A DNA stretch of 58,601 nucleotides from Trichormus sp. ATA11-4-KO1. Lineage in GTDB: Bacteria > Cyanobacteriota > Cyanobacteriia > Cyanobacteriales > Nostocaceae. The stretch's first letter is position 1; each line of letters begins with the position of its first letter. Positions 3,001 to 12,000 of this stretch are shown in pieces. The position numbers were made by a program. The DNA is taken from NCBI GenBank assembly GCA_019358915.1, contig JAHHIM010000028.1, positions 1-58,601 on the forward strand, written 5' to 3'.

Positions 3001-6000
3001 GTAGTTTTTAAGTGAATTACCAGCAGCAGGAATTAGAGCCGGAGAGCGTTTTACGTTATAGTTCTTCCAAAGATAAGTGTCCATTCTGTTGCAATATCAT
3101 CAGTTACTAAGAAGCCTTAACCCAGCAGAAATACTGTTAGTCTAGTGCACACTCCCTGGCAAGTAGAGCCGTTGATCCGTTGTATTGCATGACTTAGCAG
3201 TAGATGGTAGATTTGATTGGAAAAAATTCGATAACTAGGATAAATATGAGCAAAAATAAGCAAAAAATTCTTGATTTTCATGTTCGAGATTCATGCTCAG
3301 GAATCTGGAGAAGAGTTTCTAAATATTATCGTCAAACCAAAACTAATCCTCTTTGGCTTTTAATGTTTATTACTGGTCGATTTAATATTATTCGTCATCT
3401 GGTTATTTCTTTTTCTCAACAGCCTATAAGATATAAAAAATATCAAGATTTATCTATATTTTCAAACCTAGAAGTTGATGAAATTGTCACTTCTTTAAAA
3501 CAAGACGGTATTTACATTGGCATTCATCTACCTGATAGTATCCTTCAAGAACTTCTTAATTTTGCTCAGAATAATAGGTGTTATGGAGATGGTAATTACA
3601 ATTATGGATTCTTATATACTGATAAAGCCAGAGCAGAAAATGACTACGGACAATCTTTTATCCGAGGCGACTATTATAACACTACTTTGCTTTGTCCAGT
3701 AATAAAAAGAATAGCCAGTGATCCAAAAGTTTTAGAAATAGCTCATAAATATTTAGAAAAAGATCCTGTCTTCATAGGTAGTCAACTACACTGGGTTTTT
3801 GTAAAAAGAACAAAATATGACTTAAATAAAGCAGCGATGAATTTTCATTATGATTTAAATGACTACCGCAATTTGATATTTTTCTTTTATCTAACTGACG
3901 TCAACTTATCGAGCAGTCCCCATGTGTACATCCGTGGTAGTCACAAACGCAAAAAACTAAGTTATATTTTATCCTTATTTAGACGACAGTCTGATGCAGA
4001 ACTACTGACTTATTATGGATCAGATCGGTGGTTAACTATTTGTGGAAAAGCTGGTTTTGGCTTTGTAGAAGACGTATTCGCTTTTCATAAAGCTACACCT
4101 CCAATTTCCCAAGATCGTTTGCTATTGCAAATAAAATTTGGAATTCATGATTATGGTGAATACAATAATTGTATATATTAAACTTTATACAAGAGCGAAA
4201 ATAAACTAATACAACATTGGCTATTTTTTATTTAGATAACCATTTTTACCATTAATAACTGACTCCTGACAAAAATTCCTCAAAACCCTGATACACACTT
4301 TCATCGGAGCGTAAATCAGTAATATTGAATTCTTTCCGCATCAGCCCCAACCGGAACATTACATTTGAAAGACAACCACTTAGTGGGGATTCAGAAGAGC
4401 TACTAATTGATTCCTGAATTCTGACTTCTAAGTTCTTCTTCAAAGCTTGCTCAACCTCCTTGCTATCATGACAGTATGCTGCCGAAAAAGGAGATGTCAG
4501 TCATGTTTGCCCTTGTTTCTCCAGACAAGACTCAATTGCCTCCTGGTGCTGTAGTACGCCTACCTGCTACTTGGCAAGAGTACCAGCAGTTATGTGAACA
4601 ACGGGGAGATGGGTCAATTCCGCGTATAAAATACCGTAGTGGAGAAGTATTGCTGATGTCCCCATTACCAGTACATGGTCGAGATGCCCATTTACTGGCC
4701 AACATTGTGACTACGCTATTAGATCACGATGAGCGAGAATATGATGCGTTTACACCAGTCACCATGAGCTTACCCCAAGAAAGCGGGATTGAGCCAGATT
4801 ATTGCTTTTATATCGATAACTGGCAAGCTGTATCAGGTAAAAAACGTATTGACTGGGAACAAGATCCACCTCCCGATTTGGTAATTGAAATTGATGTCAC
4901 CAGCTATTCTGATGTCAAAGATTATCTCCCCTATCGTATTCCTGAAGTTTGGTTATTTAGGAATCAGCAGTTATTGATTCATCAACTACAAGGTGAAGAT
5001 TATCAACTGCAAACCCACAGCCGCTATTTCCCTGACTTTGATTTGTTAAGTGCGGTCGCTCGTTGTGTGCAAATTGCCTATGACAGAAATACTAGTGCCG
5101 CCATCCGTGATCTTAAACGAAGCTTACCACCAAGCCACTAAGTAGCTTGGCAATGAAGAGTGCTGAGTTAAAAGTGCTGAGTGCTGAGTTAAAAGACCGC
5201 CCACAATTCGCGTGGTATCAACCTTCTCCTAATTATAAGATTCCGCCCACAATTCGCGTGGCATTTACCGAGTGCAAAAGTGCCGAGTATTCTTTTTATT
5301 ACTCAGCACTCAGCACTCAGCACTGAGTCCAGTAAACCTCAAGAATGCCGCCAAAAGCTCTTAGGCAGAGACTTGAGGCTGACAGTTTGTTGTTCAGGTT
5401 TCGAGACTTCTATCGTCTGTGGGACAGTTACAGAAGGAGATAGCAGCAAAGCACTGAGTATCTCACGCTGATGGTCAACATCTGCTACGCTTTGATAAAT
5501 TGTGTATGGGTCTATCTTCATTCCCAAAGGCGTAGGAACAATCTGTAGATATTCGTTTATCGCTTGTAAGTACCAACCGTCAAAATTGCCATTAACCACA
5601 TAAGGACGCAGAGTGTTGAGTAGTTGTATCGCTCTCCTGATTTCCGAAATATTGCGACTACCATCTATCTCAGACTGGCTCTCTTGATAGCCTTTAGCTT
5701 TCTTTTCAGCTACTAACTGATAATATTTGAAAACCGCTCTTTGATTGCTTGCCAAAGAATGTACTTTCGTTTGAGATGAATATCCGACTCTCCCCCATTT
5801 GATAATCAGTTGATTATCTTCGACTTTGGCCGACCAAAACTTGTTGCTGTTACAAACAGCATTGACATAAACAAGGTATGTTTCCATTGTTTTTACTGTA
5901 TCTGGTTAATGATTCACCACAGCCTGGGCATTGCCCCATCGCAATTGATGCTGTAGTGCTTCCAAGAGAGTTTCAGTCTCTTCTCTGGTTATTCCTTCTA

Positions 6001-9000: not shown

Positions 9001-12000
9001 TGTACAATTGTGGCTTCTTCTGGGGCAAGCACCTCTAACGCCACAATGGGGATTTGAGAATCTAGAGTAGCAAAGATATTATTTAGGTTCATTGTGATTG
9101 TTTATACGGTAATGGTAGGAGTTCGTCGTGAGTTTTTACCAGTTTTACGACTACCTCATGAAGTTCGGCATCGCCGTCAAAAATCTCCGCAGTTCCATCA
9201 CTAAAGGCAATGGCTGAAACTAAAGCATTAATCAATACACACAGACCCTCTGTATTGCCTTTGATTATGATTGGTTCTCTGGCTTGAGTAGCGGCGTAAA
9301 TATGAACCATTGCGTATTCTTTGGGTAATTCGTTCATCCTGTTTGTTACCTAATACACCATTCAATACCCAGGGATTCACATATTGTTTCGTAATGCACA
9401 CCTTCCAAATAGCTATTGACTCCATAAAATGTGCAATACTCAAAATTTCTGGGGTCACTTTTGTAATCAGTACCCTCCAAGGAAAGCATTTCATCGGTAT
9501 GAATCGGACTGTAGTACCTGACAAGCAACCCCAAACCGAGGTCATGACGAAAGCTATGCCATTTTGCTCTATTTAACCAGTCGTTTAGGCACTTTGCGTC
9601 GTCCTCCAGTTCTCCATGATTTGGATAATAATCATCTTGCTTTTCCCAACAAGCAGTTAAGGTGCATCGCCCAGCATTTTGAACAGCTTCTTCCAAATGC
9701 TCACGAGTAAAATAGGAAAATGCAAGATCAATATGTGGCTCAAAGTTCAGCGCCCACATCAGTTTTTTAACTTCTCTCACACTTAACCAAACTGTTAAAC
9801 CGAACTCGCCCCAAATCCTGGCTTTGCTGTTTGACCGAACTTTTCCTATTTGCATGAGTATCTCCGAAAAGATTTAGGGGGAACTCGACCATTCCCCCCT
9901 TTCTGTTATTGTCTTATGCGTGTTTGATGTGTCGAAGTATTCCGTAGCTGCTGGGTTTGCGCTTCATCTTTGAAAGTGCGATCGCCCACAACACCCAACG
10001 CTTCCTCGAACGGCTGCGTCGCTTCCAGGCAGGACAGCCCTTCAAAACCCTCAGCTTCTACTCGCACTTCACCAGTCAATTTATCGAAATGTATCAGTAT
10101 TGAGCGTTCCATCAATTACCTCCTAGCGTATTGTTTAACTTCCTGATGTCCGGCAAATGTTAGCCGTAGGGTTTGCACTTGACCTTTGGTTTCTTCGTTA
10201 ATAGTGCATTCGCCAAATTTTTCGCGTAAATCCTCGGCTTTGGCTAGTACCATGCGCTTGCCATACGTCTGCATTAACTTGTGGCTGAAGAAGTTTTCAC
10301 CCAGCCGGGGAGAAGTTTCGTATTCGTCGTGAATTACGTCATACACTCCAGAATTTGAGTTCCAGCGAAAACCGATATCTGCACGGGCTTTGATTGTGCG
10401 ACCACTGATTATGATTTCCGCACTCTGCCCTTGCGAACCACCGTAGTAGCCTGTGAGTAGCTGCGGTGTTTCATAGACCTGGGGTTTGAGTTCTAAGTCT
10501 TCTAAGGCTTGTACCAAACACTCACGATTGGTTAATTTCGTCTTGACTTGTGTAAAATGTGACATTTATTATCTCCTAGCTGTTTGAGTTGGTATTGAAA
10601 CGCGAACAGTAGTTACCGAATCTTTCGTTACGGTTCCCACTACCTCACCACCAATTTCGCCTGGAGTTGTGACCGCCCCTGTTCCCCTAAATTCTTTTGG
10701 GTAATCGCCGGCTCGTTCACAATGGAATCCAGATGCTCCATCATTTCTTGCAGACTACCGCCAGCTTCAGGACTAGCATTCGCCAGCAGCACCCGCACTT
10801 TCTGAAGATGTTTTTCCATCTTGCGCTTGAACTGCACGGGTTTACGTCCCGGTTCCCAGTCAGCCAATTCCTCCAACAACTGCGCGGCTAGTTGTTCACC
10901 ACCGGCGATCGCAGATTCTCGCAAGCGTTGTTCTAGGTTCTGGTCGTATTGGTTGATGAACTGTGTGATCTGAGCAAGACACTCAGCTTGTTGCTGGTTC
11001 AGCTGCTCAGACAATGCCGGGATAATCACCGGACGACCGATGACTACTTGAAGGTAATCTTCTAAGTCTGACAACAGAGGAAAAGCTTTGAGCAAGCTGG
11101 TTTTAACTTCTTCTTGTTTGTCTTGAGGCAGTTCCCAAACATTCAAAGATATGAAGTGATCAATACGTGCCGTGTAATCTGCTAAACCTTGCTCATAACT
11201 ACCTTTCAACCCAGCACGTAAAGTTGGCGCAATTACATCCCGAATGTTGAGCAACTGACTCCAAACCAAGGGAGCTAAATCAATCGGGCAAATCCAATCG
11301 CCACCATCGGCGGACATCCACTCTTGCACAGAGGCTATTTCTTGCCTCAATTGACTGGCAGCTTCATCTAACGCTTTAAATACTTTGATGCCTTTCAACC
11401 CAACTTCGGAAGATTTTACTTTGAGTAAATCTGATTCTTCCTCATTATCAGCTTGCAAAACATCAGTCCACTTCGGAGCGTTACTCTTAGTGGTTTTCTT
11501 CAGTTGGATTTTGAACCGAATCCGAGTTTTATTGAGTTTAGAAAAGTTATAATGCTCAACTACAGCATTCTGTAAAAATGCTTCAGAATTGGCAATTGCT
11601 TGTACCATTGTCTATTCACCTCAAATTTTCACAAAAAATTAGCGTAGCTTCTTAGATTTCCGAGAAACTACGCTTTTTGATATCTAAACAACAACCCAAT
11701 AAATCCCTACTTTGCGAACCATCTGCGATTGATTATTGATGGTTGCAGTTCCCAATAAATGACTATTTTTGAGGTGTTGAACATTTTTGATAGTTCTGTA
11801 GACTATCTTGTGGGAACTGCCTCTTTGCAGCTTGATTGGGTGTTTAATGATTGGGGGTTTGCGCTTACTCATAAATTGTCAGCGACGGAGCCTTGCGTTT
11901 GAGATTTCCCTTCCCATCATCACCATTGGTTAAAATGGTTGGTTGTTTAACGCAATCAGACTTTTTACAAGTCCAATTCCAATGATTAATTTGTAATTTG

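What a model noticed while it worked through the whole genome (the two positions that open the first line are those of the whole stretch)
5339..11608. Mobile-element module X-DUF1257-DUF2997-AAA-WGR, paralogous to the chromosomal ycf35/ycf46 genes; DUF1257 and DUF2997 ar [...]
Two mobile/plasmid-like contigs carry the same five-gene module in the same order: a 322-377-aa protein of no family (g02889; g04682), a Ycf35-like DUF1257 protein (g02888; g04683), a small DUF2997 protein (g02887; g04684), a Ycf46-like AAA ATPase (g02884; g04685) and a WGR-domain protein (g02881; g04686) (C28:5,339-11,608 minus strand; C63:3,211-7,829 plus strand). The genome also has the housekeeping relatives ycf46-ycf35 (g00135-g00134) and DUF2997-ycf35-fed7-like ferredoxin (g01290-g01288). 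The module is a conserved, multi-copy unit of Nostocales plasmids/elements that no defence or phage library knows, and structure prediction supports that DUF2997 binds DUF1257 by adding its N-terminal [...]
Evidence so far: blastp between the two copies: 47% (X), 32% (DUF1257), 25% (AAA), 26% (WGR); Pfam at E<=0.01 confirms WGR, DUF2997, DUF1257 in both; PADLOC: only generic AAA (IetA-like) hits, none for the other four. 80 loci related to g02889 in GTDB genomes, several per Nostoc genome, one on a named plasmid; of the 50 loci with >=5.5 kb downstream, 50 have DUF1257, DUF2997 and the AAA in the same order and 42 the WGR gene (tblastn, call 152). neighbours.tsv: DUF1257 next to DUF2997 in 3,276 of 3,635 genomes with both, next to an AAA in 2,228 of 4,004. 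predict_complex: g02888+g02887 ipSAE 0.72 (runs 0.72/0.71/0.72), best of 3 controls 0.00, partner pLDDT >=60, runs share >=63% of contacts; the mark was reac [...]
(Added by a program. Inside this text positions count along the whole contig: contig position 1 is position 1 of the stretch shown here. "Call 12" and the like, gene names such as g00115 and contig names such as C1 are that model's own, and its searches are not shown. The text may have been shortened before it was handed on; [...] marks where a part breaks off. The agent that wrote the report below was given it as the finding of a first reader that could run no searches.)

Follow-up and report, generated by a model that had tools for sequence, protein, structure and literature searches.

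The report
Plasmid AAA+ module with tagged partners
This is a real, conserved operon of large Nostocales plasmids that pairs a protein-remodelling ATPase with small Ycf35-type partners, a DUF3150-like protein and a catalytic-domain-less PARP-like DNA-break sensor; its function has not been studied, and this copy is partly damaged.

Summary
The genes are there as described. In the window, though, they are not five adjacent genes. Four extra ORFs are interleaved, and protein X is cut short by a roughly 0.5-kb deletion that also removed a second DUF1257 paralogue.

The order X-DUF1257-DUF2997-AAA held in 58 of 58 related loci with enough downstream DNA. WGR followed in 47 of 58, and an 82-85-aa gene lay before the AAA in 34 of 58. 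X occurs on 38 Nostocales plasmid records, mostly once per plasmid.

New here:
- X is probably a divergent DUF3150 protein.
- The WGR protein is WGR plus a PARP regulatory-like helical domain, with no catalytic domain.
- Phage libraries do know the AAA, DUF1257 and DUF2997 families.
- The ATPase, X and WGR proteins end in conserved short tails behind variable linkers. These tails are basic/aromatic in this module type and acidic/aromatic in the second copy on C63. My statistics for a shared docking tag are weak, except in a Bacillus plasmid relative.

Best reading (inferred): a tag-addressed AAA+ remodeller that serves the element's own DNA metabolism. Defence or anti-defence is not excluded.

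This scan has noted the same module family before on other DNA. I found no paper describing it.

The parts
14135..14163 (-). Best sigma-70-like promoter match (TTGACA-17-TATATT, 11 of 12). It lies in the divergent intergenic region upstream of the co-directional gene chain.
   Evidence: This is a consensus match only. Transcription is not shown.
13252..13830 (-). First conserved upstream gene of the chain (cluster c9, 192 aa here, about 265 aa elsewhere). No family.
   Evidence: ORF clustering: the cluster is present in 51 loci on the same strand upstream of X. No Pfam hit.
12561..12953 (-). Upstream small gene (cluster c38, 130 aa). No family.
   Evidence: 19 loci. Searches gave no Pfam hit.
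11865..12161 (-). Upstream small gene (cluster c66, 98 aa). No family.
   Evidence: 9 loci. Searches gave no Pfam hit.
11684..11872 (-). Small gene directly before X (cluster c13, 62 aa).
   Evidence: the cluster is present in 47 loci, always just upstream of X.
10640..11608 (-). Protein X, a probable divergent DUF3150 protein. This copy is 3'-truncated: 322 aa against 352-357 aa in orthologues. It lacks the conserved C-terminal tail.
   Evidence: truncation. (DUF3150 link). (model pLDDT 75, no fold match).
10569..10659 (-). Deletion junction (about 10651-10659), followed by the last roughly 15-30 codons of a second DUF1257 paralogue. That paralogue is intact in 7 of 58 related loci.
   Evidence: the sequence reads through the paralogue's conserved C-terminus; blastn against L004, L005 and L006 shows about 0.5 kb missing; loci with two DUF1257 genes.
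10116..10565 (-). DUF1257 (Ycf35-like) protein, 149 aa, with an invariant N-terminal MSHF.
   Evidence: PF06868, 4e-18. (invariant columns). (model pLDDT 86.6, pTM 0.81). (no clear solved fold, best Z 6.2).
9906..10115 (-). DUF2997 protein, 69 aa.
   Evidence: PF11211, 9e-13. (phrog_23133).
9346..9855 (-). orf169, an optional inserted gene. No family.
   Evidence: Searches found no family. It is at the same position in 3 of 58 loci.
9089..9337 (-). orf82, a frequent sixth member. Its stop overlaps the AAA start. No family.
   Evidence: 34 of 58 loci. (annotated 85-aa gene in pCC7120alpha). Searches found no family.
7473..9092 (-). Ycf46-like classical AAA+ ATPase, 539 aa. It has an N-terminal domain of about 285 aa of unknown fold, one AAA domain and a lid. 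Walker A and B and the RKGRFD arginine-finger region are present. Pore-loop 1 reads LVG rather than aromatic-x-G. After a linker it carries a conserved C-terminal tail.
6341..7129 (-). N6-adenine DNA methyltransferase-like gene (NPPF motif). It is an insertion specific to this copy.
   Evidence: weak N6_Mtase and MTS hits. (MTase models). (phrog_9133, 6e-57). In one search, 1 of 58 loci showed any MTase hit downstream of X, and that hit (L010) is weak: 29% identity over residues 96-227.
6040..6264 (-). orf74, seen only in this copy. It may not be a gene.
   Evidence: it joined no cluster. Searches found no family.
5339..5887 (-). WGR protein, 182 aa. It consists of a WGR domain (1-72), a PARP-regulatory-like helical segment (about 76-148), a variable linker and a conserved C-terminal tail. 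It has no catalytic domain.
   Evidence: WGR, 3e-19. (PARP_reg in 8 of 20 orthologues, best 1.2e-4; the window's own copy not at E<=1). (PARP1 chains, 0.015-0.084). (conserved tail).

Best explanation
The region is the Nostocales-plasmid version of a widespread, undescribed mobile-element machine.

Core, as inferred from recurrence. The core is a Ycf46-type classical AAA+ ATPase, a Cdc48-like protein remodeller with a private N-terminal domain. With it come two small partners, DUF1257 and DUF2997, and a helical DUF3150-like protein (X).

Nostocales additions. These plasmids add a WGR plus PARP-regulatory-like protein. It looks like the DNA-break-sensing front half of a PARP without the enzyme. 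An 82-85-aa protein is often present too.

Proposed mechanism (inferred, not shown):
1. The ATPase hexamer is the motor.
2. DUF1257/DUF2997 form its constant adaptor.
3. X, the WGR protein and the ATPase's own C-terminus each carry a short conserved tail behind a flexible linker. These tails dock on one shared site in the core.
4. The WGR module brings the motor to nicks or ends on the element's DNA.
5. There the motor remodels or strips DNA-bound proteins during replication, repair or establishment of the plasmid.

The two co-resident module types may be insulated from each other by their tails, which are basic in the C28 type and acidic in the C63 type.

This particular copy is impaired. A deletion removed X's tail and a second DUF1257 gene, and foreign genes are inserted.
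For: Shown here:
- Gene content and order are conserved: 58 of 58 loci for X-DUF1257-DUF2997-AAA, 47 of 58 with WGR, 34 of 58 with orf82.
- X is on 38 Nostocales plasmid records at 41 places, so mostly one per plasmid, and several plasmids of one strain each carry a copy.
- The AAA domain matches Cdc48/p97 chains at E down to 2e-62 and keeps Walker A/B and RKGRFD.
- The AAA, DUF1257 and DUF2997 families recur together in other mobile elements. The examples are Rhodobacter phage RcTiptonus, an IncC plasmid and a Bacillus plasmid. DUF1257-like MSH-starting genes also follow the AAA in phages JP1 and HJ05.
- In three of these phages (RcTiptonus, JP1, SM1) the set sits after a lysis-type gene, and in JP1 and SM1 it lies ahead of RNase H or DnaB-type replication genes.
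- X is DUF3150-like. One distant family member hits PF11348 at 1.8e-5. Two of four of its relatives carry the precomputed family. In the ESM Atlas, 22 of 30 named feature hits belong to a DUF3150 set, at score 0.94.
- The WGR protein carries PARP_reg-like sequence: 8 of 20 orthologues, and the C63 copy at 0.0019.
- The tails are conserved while the linkers vary.
- Net charge of the last 12 residues is +2 to +3 in all 5 proteins of the C28 type, against -3 to 0 in all 5 of the C63 type. Only 22.8% of 3,760 long ORFs of this genome reach +2.
- A pattern read off the AAA tail (SL[KR], then F.?R) occurs in 3 of 4,774 long-ORF tails of the genome. One of the three is the module's own WGR protein.
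- In the Bacillus plasmid, the AAA and its helix-hairpin-helix neighbour share a terminal six-residue motif that differs at one position. Only 6 of 2,000 composition-preserving shuffles reached that score.
- In the IncC set, three partner proteins end in the same RKIILD and the AAA ends in RKLAIED.
- The AAA N-domain is acidic (net -10) where the tails are basic, and neutral (0) where they are acidic. DUF1257 goes the other way.
Against: - No experiment or expression data exist for any part.
- The tag idea is statistically weak. Own-module tail similarity exceeded every other module in only 2 of 9 modules, and 985 of 20,000 permutations reached the observed sum.
- With composition-preserving shuffles, only the Bacillus pair stands out, and the Fisher combined p is 0.07. 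What is shared may therefore be composition rather than a motif.
- The tail patterns were defined after looking at the data.
- The charge comparison rests on two module types.
- The window's own AAA tail (ending FNLN) does not fit the majority pattern exactly.
- Pore-loop 1 has Leu, not an aromatic residue. The C63 ATPase has Glu there and a shortened arginine-finger region, so threading activity is uncertain.
- The window's WGR copy itself shows no PARP_reg hit at E<=1.
- The DUF3150 link fails in profile-versus-single-sequence tests.
- The module is not consistently near the CyRepA1 replication gene. CyRepA1 is in 175 plasmid records and usually far from X.
- Eleven of 58 loci have a broken or truncated AAA. 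That fits a dispensable cargo as well as a core function.
Confidence: 0.42

Rival explanations
1. It is a plasmid-borne anti-phage or anti-plasmid defence system. The WGR protein senses foreign or damaged DNA, and the AAA+ ATPase with its partners triggers growth arrest or destroys a target.
For: - The AAA domain hits the IetA and IteA anti-phage ATPase models (PADLOC 5e-25; NCBIfam 7e-24).
- The surroundings are rich in methyltransferases, a Uma2 nuclease and other conflict-type genes.
- In pCC7120alpha a Dpd gene lies about 12 kb away.
- Copies are often broken, 11 of 58 AAA genes, as is common for defence cargo.
Against: - The IetA/IteA hits cover only the generic AAA domain and are far below the curated cut-off (84.6 against 510 bits).
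- No IetS-like protease or other effector (nuclease, TIR, pore) is in the module.
- No PADLOC model matches X, DUF1257, DUF2997, orf82 or WGR.
- The same core sits in phage genomes next to replication genes. That position is unusual for host defence.
- Several plasmids in one strain each keep their own copy.
Confidence: 0.2
2. It is a counter-defence or host-takeover device. The element-encoded unfoldase is aimed by its tagged adaptors at host proteins, for example DNA-end-binding or restriction proteins, and it inactivates them when the element enters a cell.
For: - The core occurs on phages and conjugative plasmids.
- Long co-directional chains of small orphan genes lie upstream, as in plasmid leading regions.
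- An orphan N6-methyltransferase is inserted in this copy.
- The partners that differ between elements are DNA-binding proteins: WGR here and helix-hairpin-helix in Bacillus.
Against: - No known anti-restriction family is present in the conserved core.
- A position relative to oriT was not established.
- Chromosomal housekeeping paralogues (ycf46/ycf35) exist in almost all oxygenic cyanobacteria sampled. The family therefore has a cell-internal role too.
Confidence: 0.18
3. It is a plasmid maintenance function in the narrow sense. It might remodel the initiator, help partition the plasmid or control copy number. Its type-specific tails would then act as an incompatibility-like determinant.
For: - There is mostly one copy per plasmid, and co-resident plasmids each carry one.
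- It lies next to CyRepA1 in pCC7120alpha, and next to ParA, ParB and SSB in pAzo01.
- Two orthogonal types sit in one genome.
Against: - In most plasmids the replication gene is tens to hundreds of kb away. Many CyRepA1 plasmids lack X: 175 records against 38.
- 11 of 58 loci have a damaged AAA, and the pAzo01 copy is decayed.
- Only 11 of 401 sampled cyanobacterial genomes have X at all.
Confidence: 0.12
4. It does for the plasmid-bearing cell what chromosomal Ycf46/Ycf35 do. That would be a stress or redox-linked regulatory role, with no special link to DNA.
For: - It is paralogous to ycf46/ycf35.
- Ycf35 is linked to ferredoxin Fed7 in gene clusters (passage read in PMC4284462).
- The ycf46 operon is described as stress-induced in S. 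elongatus (passages read in PMC13683863).
- Cyanophage P-SSM7 carries DUF2997 and DUF1257 beside psbA, hli and ferredoxin genes.
Against: - The plasmid module has no ferredoxin.
- It adds a WGR DNA-binding protein.
- Its relatives in non-photosynthetic hosts (IncC, Bacillus, Rhodobacter, Pseudomonas and mycobacterial phages) cannot serve photosynthesis.
Confidence: 0.05

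Closest known systems
Cyanobacterial and plastid Ycf46 (AAA+), Ycf35 (DUF1257) and the DUF2997 neighbour
   Same: The three protein families are the same. The window's AAA aligns with the genome's two Ycf46-like genes at 36-37% identity over residues 97-518. The same genome has DUF2997-DUF1257-ferredoxin and AAA-DUF1257 sets.
   Different: The plasmid form adds X (DUF3150-like), orf82 and a WGR/PARP_reg protein. It has a different first ~100 residues in the ATPase and lies on plasmids. The chromosomal genes are split over two loci and sit with a ferredoxin. Their molecular function is also unknown. The papers I read report only stress induction and a KaiC interaction (PMC13683863, passages) and gene-cluster membership (PMC4284462, passage).
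Mobile-element AAA+ / DUF3150 / DUF1257 / DUF2997 modules of phages and IncC plasmids
   Same: The same core families are present. I confirmed AAA plus DUF2997, with a ~130-aa gene between them, on an IncC plasmid, a Bacillus plasmid and Rhodobacter phage RcTiptonus. I also saw conserved C-terminal tails shared among partners.
   Different: The Nostocales form has the WGR/PARP_reg protein and orf82. Its gene order is X first and AAA fourth. It has no radical SAM, clamp, Hsp70 or SWIM partner. The DUF3150 link of X is weak (for it; searches gave nothing).
Cdc48/p97/VAT-type AAA+ unfoldases with cofactors recruited through short peptide motifs (textbook knowledge, recalled)
   Same: The AAA domain is of the classical clade, with best solved matches to Cdc48/p97 (E 2e-62 to 1e-58). 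It has a separate N-domain. Several partner proteins carry conserved terminal peptides.
   Different: There is one AAA domain, not two. The N-domain has no recognisable fold or family. Pore-loop 1 has Leu instead of an aromatic residue. No ubiquitin-like system is present. Docking of the tails is inferred, not shown.
PARP1-3 DNA-break sensing module: WGR followed by the helical regulatory domain (domain roles recalled)
   Same: A WGR domain (3e-19) is followed by sequence that matches PARP_reg in 8 of 20 orthologues. It also weakly matches PARP1 chains.
   Different: The protein stops after about 180 residues. It has no ADP-ribosyl transferase domain and no zinc fingers, so it cannot be a PARP enzyme.
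MoxR-type AAA+ / DUF3150 / VWA trio beside ssb-bet-exo on IncC plasmids
   Same: A DUF3150 protein is paired with an AAA+ ATPase on a mobile element, next to DNA-metabolism genes.
   Different: The ATPase clade differs (MoxR-like, 322 aa). A VWA partner is present. There is no DUF1257 or DUF2997. It is a separate locus, 60 kb from the IncC Ycf46-like set.
IetAS anti-phage system (PADLOC IetA, NCBIfam IteA)
   Same: The AAA domain hits the IetA/IteA models.
   Different: The hit covers only the generic AAA domain and is far below the curated cut-off. No IetS-like protease partner is present.

Membership tests
Ycf46-type AAA+ / DUF1257 / DUF2997 triad | Classical-clade AAA domain with AAA_lid_3, and similarity to Ycf46-like proteins that extends beyond the AAA domain | tested here: met
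   PF00004 at 2e-30 and PF17862 at 3e-9. There is 36-37% identity over residues 97-518 to the genome's two Ycf46-like genes. phrog_8638 scores 2e-100 over residues 97-522.
Ycf46-type AAA+ / DUF1257 / DUF2997 triad | DUF1257 and DUF2997 genes in the same operon as the ATPase | tested here: met
   (both above the Pfam cut-offs). (58 of 58 loci in the same order).
DUF3150 (PF11348), for protein X | Match to the Pfam model above its cut-off | tested here: inconclusive
   The window's X has no hit at E<=5. One of 18 aligned family members (P0038) hits at 1.8e-5, and 2 of 4 of its relatives carry the precomputed family. In the ESM Atlas, 22 of 30 named hits belong to a set in which 15% of members carry DUF3150. 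hhalign against a single bona fide DUF3150 protein was not significant.
Poly(ADP-ribose) polymerase family, for the WGR protein | WGR domain | tested here: met
   PF05406 at 3e-19, and in 20 of 20 orthologues.
Poly(ADP-ribose) polymerase family, for the WGR protein | Helical regulatory domain (PARP_reg) | tested here: inconclusive
   It is found in 8 of 20 orthologues at E<=1, best 1.2e-4. The window's own copy is not among them. The C63 copy scores 0.0019, at 18.7 bits, below the 26.8-bit cut-off.
Poly(ADP-ribose) polymerase family, for the WGR protein | ADP-ribosyl transferase catalytic domain | tested here: not met
   The protein is 182 aa and ends about 30 residues after the helical segment. 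No catalytic-domain family appeared.
IetAS (Ietswaart) defence system | IetA ATPase above the family cut-off, plus an IetS serine protease partner | tested here: not met
   IteA scores 84.6 bits against a cut-off of 510. No protease family is found in any of the nine module ORFs.
Cdc48/p97-type unfoldase | Two stacked AAA domains, with an aromatic pore-loop residue in the translocating ring | tested here: not met
   There is a single AAA domain. Pore-loop 1 reads LVG in this module type and ELG in the C63 type. The Cdc48/p97 features are recalled from textbook knowledge.
Plasmid partition or replication modules (ParAB, CyRepA1) | Presence of, or tight linkage to, a Par or Rep gene | tested here: not met
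   No Par or Rep family is in the module. CyRepA1 is adjacent only in a few plasmids. No CyRepA1 homologue is on C28 or C63.

The most novel reading that the evidence does not exclude
Mobile elements carry a private, tag-addressed Cdc48-like segregase. A short C-terminal peptide shared by the ATPase and by interchangeable adaptor proteins plugs them into one hub built from DUF1257 and DUF2997. The adaptors seen so far are DUF3150-like X, a catalytic-domain-less PARP-like nick/end sensor and, elsewhere, helix-hairpin-helix proteins. The motor is thereby sent to DNA ends or nicks of the element, where it pulls proteins off DNA. Different tag 'dialects', basic versus acidic, keep the machines of co-resident plasmids from cross-talking. 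The orphan plastid and cyanobacterial genes ycf46 and ycf35 would then be the domesticated remnant of this machine.
Probability: 0.15. Interest if true: 0.85.

Novelty: new variant of a known kind. Interest (0 to 1): 0.62.

Why it matters
- ycf46 and ycf35 have been orphan genes of plastids and cyanobacteria for decades. A plasmid and phage version that keeps the three families in one operon, with extra DNA-binding partners, argues that they work as one machine.
- It also offers tractable systems to test this, namely pCC7120alpha in Anabaena PCC 7120 and Rhodobacter phages.
- If the shared-tail idea holds, it would be a bacterial counterpart of cofactor recruitment by p97. It would also be a new principle by which mobile elements equip a single motor with exchangeable adaptors.
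- A PARP-like sensor lacking the catalytic domain and coupled to an AAA+ motor has not been described in any paper I could find.

Tried and rejected
Complex prediction
- Complex prediction with AAA residues 1-285, DUF1257, DUF2997 and WGR residues 76-182 as partner scored 0.20 and 0.03, against a mark of 0.32. The verdict was no answer, so it says nothing on binding.

Fold searches
- X: Foldseek found 0 matches at E<=0.001. The VIA wide search gave only generic helical-bundle matches on residues about 204-322, best Z 9.7.
- DUF1257: Foldseek found 0 matches at E<=0.001. VIA gave best Z 6.2, to IntS9/IntS11 and CPSF C-terminal domains and KA1 domains, which is within the noise range stated by the tool.
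- phmmer of DUF1257 against PDB sequences found 0 hits at E<=1.
- The ESM Atlas on the AAA N-domain gave best score 0.79, which is not informative.

Profile comparisons of the X family
- Against the IncC 310-aa gene, RcTiptonus gp59, a bona fide IncC DUF3150 protein, SM1 gp28 and HJ05 gp71, none was significant.

Tail statistics
- The cross-module permutation gave 985 of 20,000.
- Composition-preserving shuffles gave Fisher p 0.07, and only the Bacillus pair was individually strong.

Database scans
- DUF3150 (PF11348) was found in 1 of 301 cyanobacterial genomes, and not in G000.
- X was sought in IMG/VR viral contigs, and two divergent X relatives in JGI metagenome contigs. None had a confirmed relative.
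- No RNA holder was listed for the region.
- The third AAA paralogue, on C43, has no recognisable DUF1257, DUF2997, X or WGR neighbours.

Ideas considered and dropped
- DUF1257 as a small N-terminal-nucleophile peptidase, because of the invariant MSHF start. The predicted strand-helix-strand topology and the fold search gave no support.

Literature
- 'DUF1257'/'DUF2997': 5 papers, 4 listed, none functional.
- 'Ycf46'/'Ycf35': 66 papers, mostly plastid genome reports.
- 'WGR domain'/'bacterial'/'conflict systems': listing only.
- 'IncC'/'AcaCD'/'AAA ATPase': no paper held the last term.
- IncA/C TraDIS: nothing relevant in the listing.
- 'DUF3150': 1 paper, irrelevant.
- Supplements were not consulted.

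Full report
**What is in the window**

On the minus strand between 5339 and 11608 lie the following ORFs:
- X, 10640-11608, 322 aa.
- A DUF1257 protein, 10116-10565.
- A DUF2997 protein, 9906-10115.
- orf169, 9346-9855.
- orf82, 9089-9337, whose stop overlaps the next start.
- An AAA ATPase, 7473-9092, 539 aa.
- A methyltransferase-like gene, 6341-7129.
- orf74, 6040-6264.
- A WGR protein, 5339-5887.

Pfam confirms DUF1257 (4e-18), DUF2997 (9e-13), AAA plus AAA_lid_3 (2e-30 and 3e-9) and WGR (3e-19). It finds nothing for X, orf169, orf82 or orf74. PADLOC returns only generic AAA models (IetA, TRIP13, mad8) and methyltransferase models.

**Second copy and chromosomal relatives**

tblastn over the laid genome finds the second module on contig C63. 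Identities are X 47%, DUF1257 32%, AAA 26% and WGR 26%. Ycf46-like paralogues of the ATPase lie on C18 and C1.

Pfam confirms DUF2997-DUF1257-4Fe-4S ferredoxin on C9, and AAA-DUF1257 on C1.

In my scan the C63 DUF1257 did not reach Pfam at E<=0.01. Its DUF2997 reached only 0.0098, below the curated cut-off. Those two assignments therefore rest on tblastn and on the shared MSHF start.

**Conservation**

A scan of one genome per species with X gave 94 confirmed relatives, of which the best 80 loci were kept. All were Nostocales-type cyanobacteria at 75-93% identity.

Of the 80 loci, 58 have at least 5.5 kb after the start of X. Among those 58:
- DUF1257, DUF2997 and AAA follow in that order in 58.
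- WGR follows the AAA in 47.
- orf82 is present in 34.
- orf169 is present in 3.
- A methyltransferase is present in 1.
- 7 have a second DUF1257 paralogue between X and DUF1257.
- The AAA is a single full-length hit in 47, so 11 are truncated or split.

Clustering all ORFs of the loci shows that the conserved block extends upstream of X through a chain of small co-directional genes. These are clusters c13 (47 loci), c6 (63), c10 (52), c19 (31) and c9 (51). A helix-turn-helix gene often comes first (24 loci). Nearly all of them have no family. The window has c9, c38, c66 and c13 but lacks c6 and c10.

The best promoter-like match on the minus strand lies at 14163-14135, in the divergent intergenic region. 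That is only a consensus match.

**This copy is damaged**

Orthologues of X are 352-357 aa and end in a conserved tail. The window's X ends 30-35 residues early.

The DNA after its stop still encodes the conserved C-terminus of the second DUF1257 paralogue. blastn against three loci that carry that paralogue shows about 0.5 kb missing, with a junction near 10651-10659.

One deletion therefore removed the tail of X and almost all of the paralogue. Together with the inserted orf169, methyltransferase and orf74, this makes the window's module a degraded or remodelled copy. Its DUF1257, DUF2997, orf82, AAA and WGR genes remain open.

**Where the module lives**

- tblastn of X against 72,556 plasmid records finds 38 records and 41 places, all Nostocales. 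They include pCC7120alpha, pNPUN01 and pNPUN02. Several plasmids of one strain each carry a copy. Predicted mobility is conjugative for 19, non-mobilizable for 14 and mobilizable for 5.
- In pCC7120alpha the module starts about 5 kb from a CyRepA1 replication gene.
- In pAzo01 a decayed copy follows ssb, parA and parB.
- CyRepA1 is found in 175 plasmid records and is usually far from X.
- Neither C28 nor C63 carries a CyRepA1 homologue.
- X is rare overall. Only 43 of 1.84 billion representative proteins match at E<=0.001. It was found in 11 of 401 sampled cyanobacterial genomes: the window's own genome, 9 of 45 others in its family and 1 of 2 in one other family of the order.
- The rest of the window holds mobile-element genes. 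These are Bro-N, DUF5131, a group II intron reverse transcriptase, two DUF1392 genes, DnaB and DNA methyltransferases. Secretion and P450 cargo follow.

**The wider family**

The statement that no phage library knows the module is wrong. PHROGs has phrog_8638 for the ATPase (2e-100), phrog_20456 for DUF1257, phrog_23133 for DUF2997, and four WGR families.

The ATPase has relatives in 86 phage records and 722 plasmid records, most of them enterobacterial conjugative plasmids. I inspected these:
- Rhodobacter phage RcTiptonus: AAA, a 230-aa gene, a 126-aa gene and DUF2997.
- A Salmonella IncC plasmid: a 310-aa gene, AAA, three small genes, DUF2997 and further genes.
- A Bacillus thuringiensis plasmid: a radical-SAM-type gene, a 151-aa gene, a helix-hairpin-helix gene, AAA and DUF2997.
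- Phages JP1, HJ05 and SM1. The set follows the lysis genes in JP1 and SM1 and precedes RNase H or DnaB-type genes there, while HJ05's neighbours are all unnamed. A gene starting MSH, as in DUF1257, is followed by a ~66-aa gene.
- Mycobacteriophage Catdawg. The ATPase there is followed by ParB-like and Ku-like genes.
- Cyanophage P-SSM7. It carries only DUF2997 plus DUF1257, beside psbA, hli and ferredoxin genes.

Earlier unchecked notes of this scan describe the same family many times. There are 82 notes with DUF1257 and DUF2997 and 69 with DUF3150 and AAA. One note concerns the same Nostocales plasmid operon in another genome. I used these notes as leads and tested the parts named below.

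**Protein X**

The AlphaFold model has pLDDT 75 and pTM 0.50. It shows an N-terminal alpha/beta part and a C-terminal helical bundle. No solved fold matches beyond generic bundles.

Three observations link X to DUF3150:
- One of 18 aligned family members, P0038, hits PF11348 at 1.8e-5.
- P0038 and one of its three relatives carry the family in the precomputed annotation.
- In the ESM Atlas, 22 of 30 named feature hits belong to one set in which 15% of members carry DUF3150. The score is 0.94 with 213-217 of 256 features shared, and the members are mostly viral.

Against this, profile-versus-single-sequence comparisons with a bona fide IncC DUF3150 protein and with four candidate phage or plasmid counterparts were not significant.

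I take X as a probable, distant DUF3150 relative. On the IncC plasmid, the bona fide DUF3150 gene sits with a MoxR-type AAA, ssb, bet, exo and a VWA gene. The family therefore keeps company with AAA+ ATPases and DNA metabolism.

**The WGR protein**

After the WGR domain comes a conserved segment (about residues 76-148). It matches the PARP regulatory domain in 8 of 20 orthologues, best 1.2e-4, though the window's own copy is not among them at E<=1. The C63 copy matches at 0.0019. PARP1 chains in the PDB match weakly, at 0.015-0.084.

The protein then has a variable linker and a conserved tail, and it ends at 182 aa. It has no catalytic domain. It looks like the break-sensing front of a PARP without the enzyme. 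That WGR binds DNA breaks is recalled knowledge about PARP1-3 and was not tested here.

**The ATPase and DUF1257**

- The AAA domain is closest to Cdc48/p97 among solved structures (E 2e-62 to 1e-58).
- It keeps Walker A, Walker B and the RKGRFD region.
- Pore-loop 1 is LVG, whereas relatives have Y, W, F, L or I at that position. The C63 copy has Glu there and a shortened arginine-finger region.
- The ~285-residue N-domain has no family and no informative Atlas neighbour.
- DUF1257 folds confidently (pLDDT 86.6, pTM 0.81) into a sheet-plus-helices platform with a disordered last eight residues.
- It has no clear solved relative. The best match is Z 6.2, to heterodimerising C-terminal domains of IntS9/IntS11 and CPSF73/100 and to KA1 domains, which is within the tool's stated noise.
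- Its N-terminal MSHF is invariant across plasmid, C63-type and chromosomal forms.

**Shared C-terminal tails**

In the C28-type module the conserved endings are:
- ...SLRAAKFRNMN for the ATPase.
- ...ATVMSFKFR for X.
- ...SLKTISKNFWRHL for WGR.

DUF1257 and DUF2997 also end in basic residues. The preceding linkers vary while the tails are nearly invariant.

In the C63-type module the same three proteins end in acidic/aromatic tails...SDIIDFSDFN...SDWVVFAASED and ...RSYYVQFH.

The supporting numbers are these:
- Net charge of the last 12 residues is +2 to +3 for all five proteins of the C28 type, and -3 to 0 for all five of the C63 type.
- In 3,760 long ORFs of this genome, 22.8% reach +2.
- A pattern read from the ATPase tail occurs in 3 of 4,774 long-ORF tails, one of them the module's WGR protein. 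That pattern was chosen after looking at the data.
- On the Bacillus plasmid, the ATPase and the helix-hairpin-helix protein end in GRTIDF and GRMIDF.
- On the IncC plasmid, three partners end in RKIILD and the ATPase in RKLAIED.
- In HJ05, three proteins end in Arg-rich I/L-containing tails.

The formal tests are weak:
- Own-module similarity beat every other module in only 2 of 9 modules, and 985 of 20,000 permutations reached the observed sum.
- With composition-preserving shuffles, only the Bacillus pair stood out (6 of 2,000), and the combined p was 0.07.

The tails are thus conserved and type-specific in composition, but a common docking motif is not established.

As a hint to the receptor, the ATPase N-domain is acidic (net -10) in the basic-tail type and neutral (0) in the acidic-tail type, whereas DUF1257 changes in the opposite sense. 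That comparison has n = 2.

**Reading**

Shown:
- A conserved plasmid operon.
- Its membership in the Ycf46/DUF1257/DUF2997 family.
- Recurrence of the core on phages and plasmids of unrelated hosts.
- Conserved terminal tails.
- Damage to this copy.

Inferred:
- The proteins form one machine.
- The tails dock partners on a shared site.
- The WGR protein aims the motor at nicks or ends.
- The purpose is the element's own DNA replication, repair or establishment.

I put 0.42 on this reading, 0.20 on defence, 0.18 on counter-defence, 0.12 on narrow plasmid maintenance and 0.05 on a Ycf46-like stress role.

**Literature**

I found no paper on the module.
- 'DUF1257'/'DUF2997' gave 5 papers. I read passages of two. 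PMC4284462 lists the duf2997-ycf35-fed7 cluster. The bioRxiv preprint 10.1101/2025.10.13.678797 only mentions the families.
- 'DUF3150' gave 1 irrelevant paper, seen in the listing only.
- Passages of PMC13683863 describe the S. elongatus ycf46 operon as stress- and ppGpp-dependent, and Ycf46 as KaiC-interacting.
- Other searches gave listings without relevant content.

Supplements were not read.

Noticed in passing
Related loci, e.g. L034:8170-8454 (cluster c6). Absent from the window.: A conserved 94-aa gene about 450 bp upstream of X is present in 63 loci. In most copies it ends in ...QQLQLF, which resembles the bacterial beta-clamp-binding motif QLxLF. The motif is recalled from memory and was not tested.
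   Followed up: no
L130 (contig C63) 1985-2887: The 300-aa gene upstream of the C63-type X is 92-99% conserved with that module type in three other loci. It ends in ...EDNIPF, which resembles the SSB C-terminal tip DDDIPF. The motif is recalled from memory and was not tested.
   Followed up: no
L130 (contig C63) 10179-12176: A 665-aa protein fuses a caspase-like Peptidase_C14 domain (3e-19) to an FGE-sulfatase domain (7e-58). A separate FGE-sulfatase gene opens the window at 728-1498.
   Followed up: no
window 19963-22059: A group II intron reverse transcriptase/maturase with an HNH domain lies at 19963-21405. The RVT_N piece is in a separate ORF (21616-22059), so the intron protein may be split or frameshifted.
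   Followed up: no
window 26571-26987 and 32638-33165: Two DUF1392 genes flank a 519-aa orphan, a DnaB helicase and a C5 DNA methyltransferase. DUF1392 also lies between the CyRepA1 gene and the module in pCC7120alpha. It may therefore mark a Nostocales plasmid replication region.
   Followed up: partly
window 36847-45256: A two-partner-secretion set (ShlB-type transporter plus large proteins with a TPS domain) and a cytochrome P450 occupy the right half of the contig as cargo.
   Followed up: no
L084 (Prochlorococcus phage P-SSM7) 3832-4384: The cyanophage carries overlapping DUF2997 and DUF1257 genes without an AAA gene. They sit among hli, psbA and ferredoxin genes, so this is the housekeeping Ycf35-type pair used as an auxiliary gene.
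   Followed up: partly
L129 (IncC plasmid NC_022522.2) 75659-83652: A MoxR-type AAA, a 302-aa gene, ssb, bet, exo, a bona fide DUF3150 gene (6e-93) and a VWA gene form one co-directional block. This is a second AAA+/DUF3150 pairing on the same plasmid as the Ycf46-like set.
   Followed up: partly
L088 ('Nostoc azollae' pAzo01) 8001-11607: Here the module is decayed. X is annotated only as a fragment, the AAA is split into three tblastn pieces, and no WGR was found. This fits the known genome erosion of this symbiont.
   Followed up: partly
L098-L125 (chromosomal Ycf35 genes of 28 cyanobacteria): Housekeeping Ycf35 proteins are 127-128 aa and end in a nearly invariant ...GSIRLVVQRW(S/C/N)(A/G). 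In the IncC set the DUF1257-like and DUF2997 proteins both end in Trp, as do the DUF2997-like proteins of phages JP1 and HJ05. The small partners may therefore have a conserved tail of their own.
   Followed up: no
window 9876-9899: A GC-rich hairpin with a following T-run, terminator-like on both strands, sits exactly between DUF2997 and the inserted orf169.
   Followed up: no
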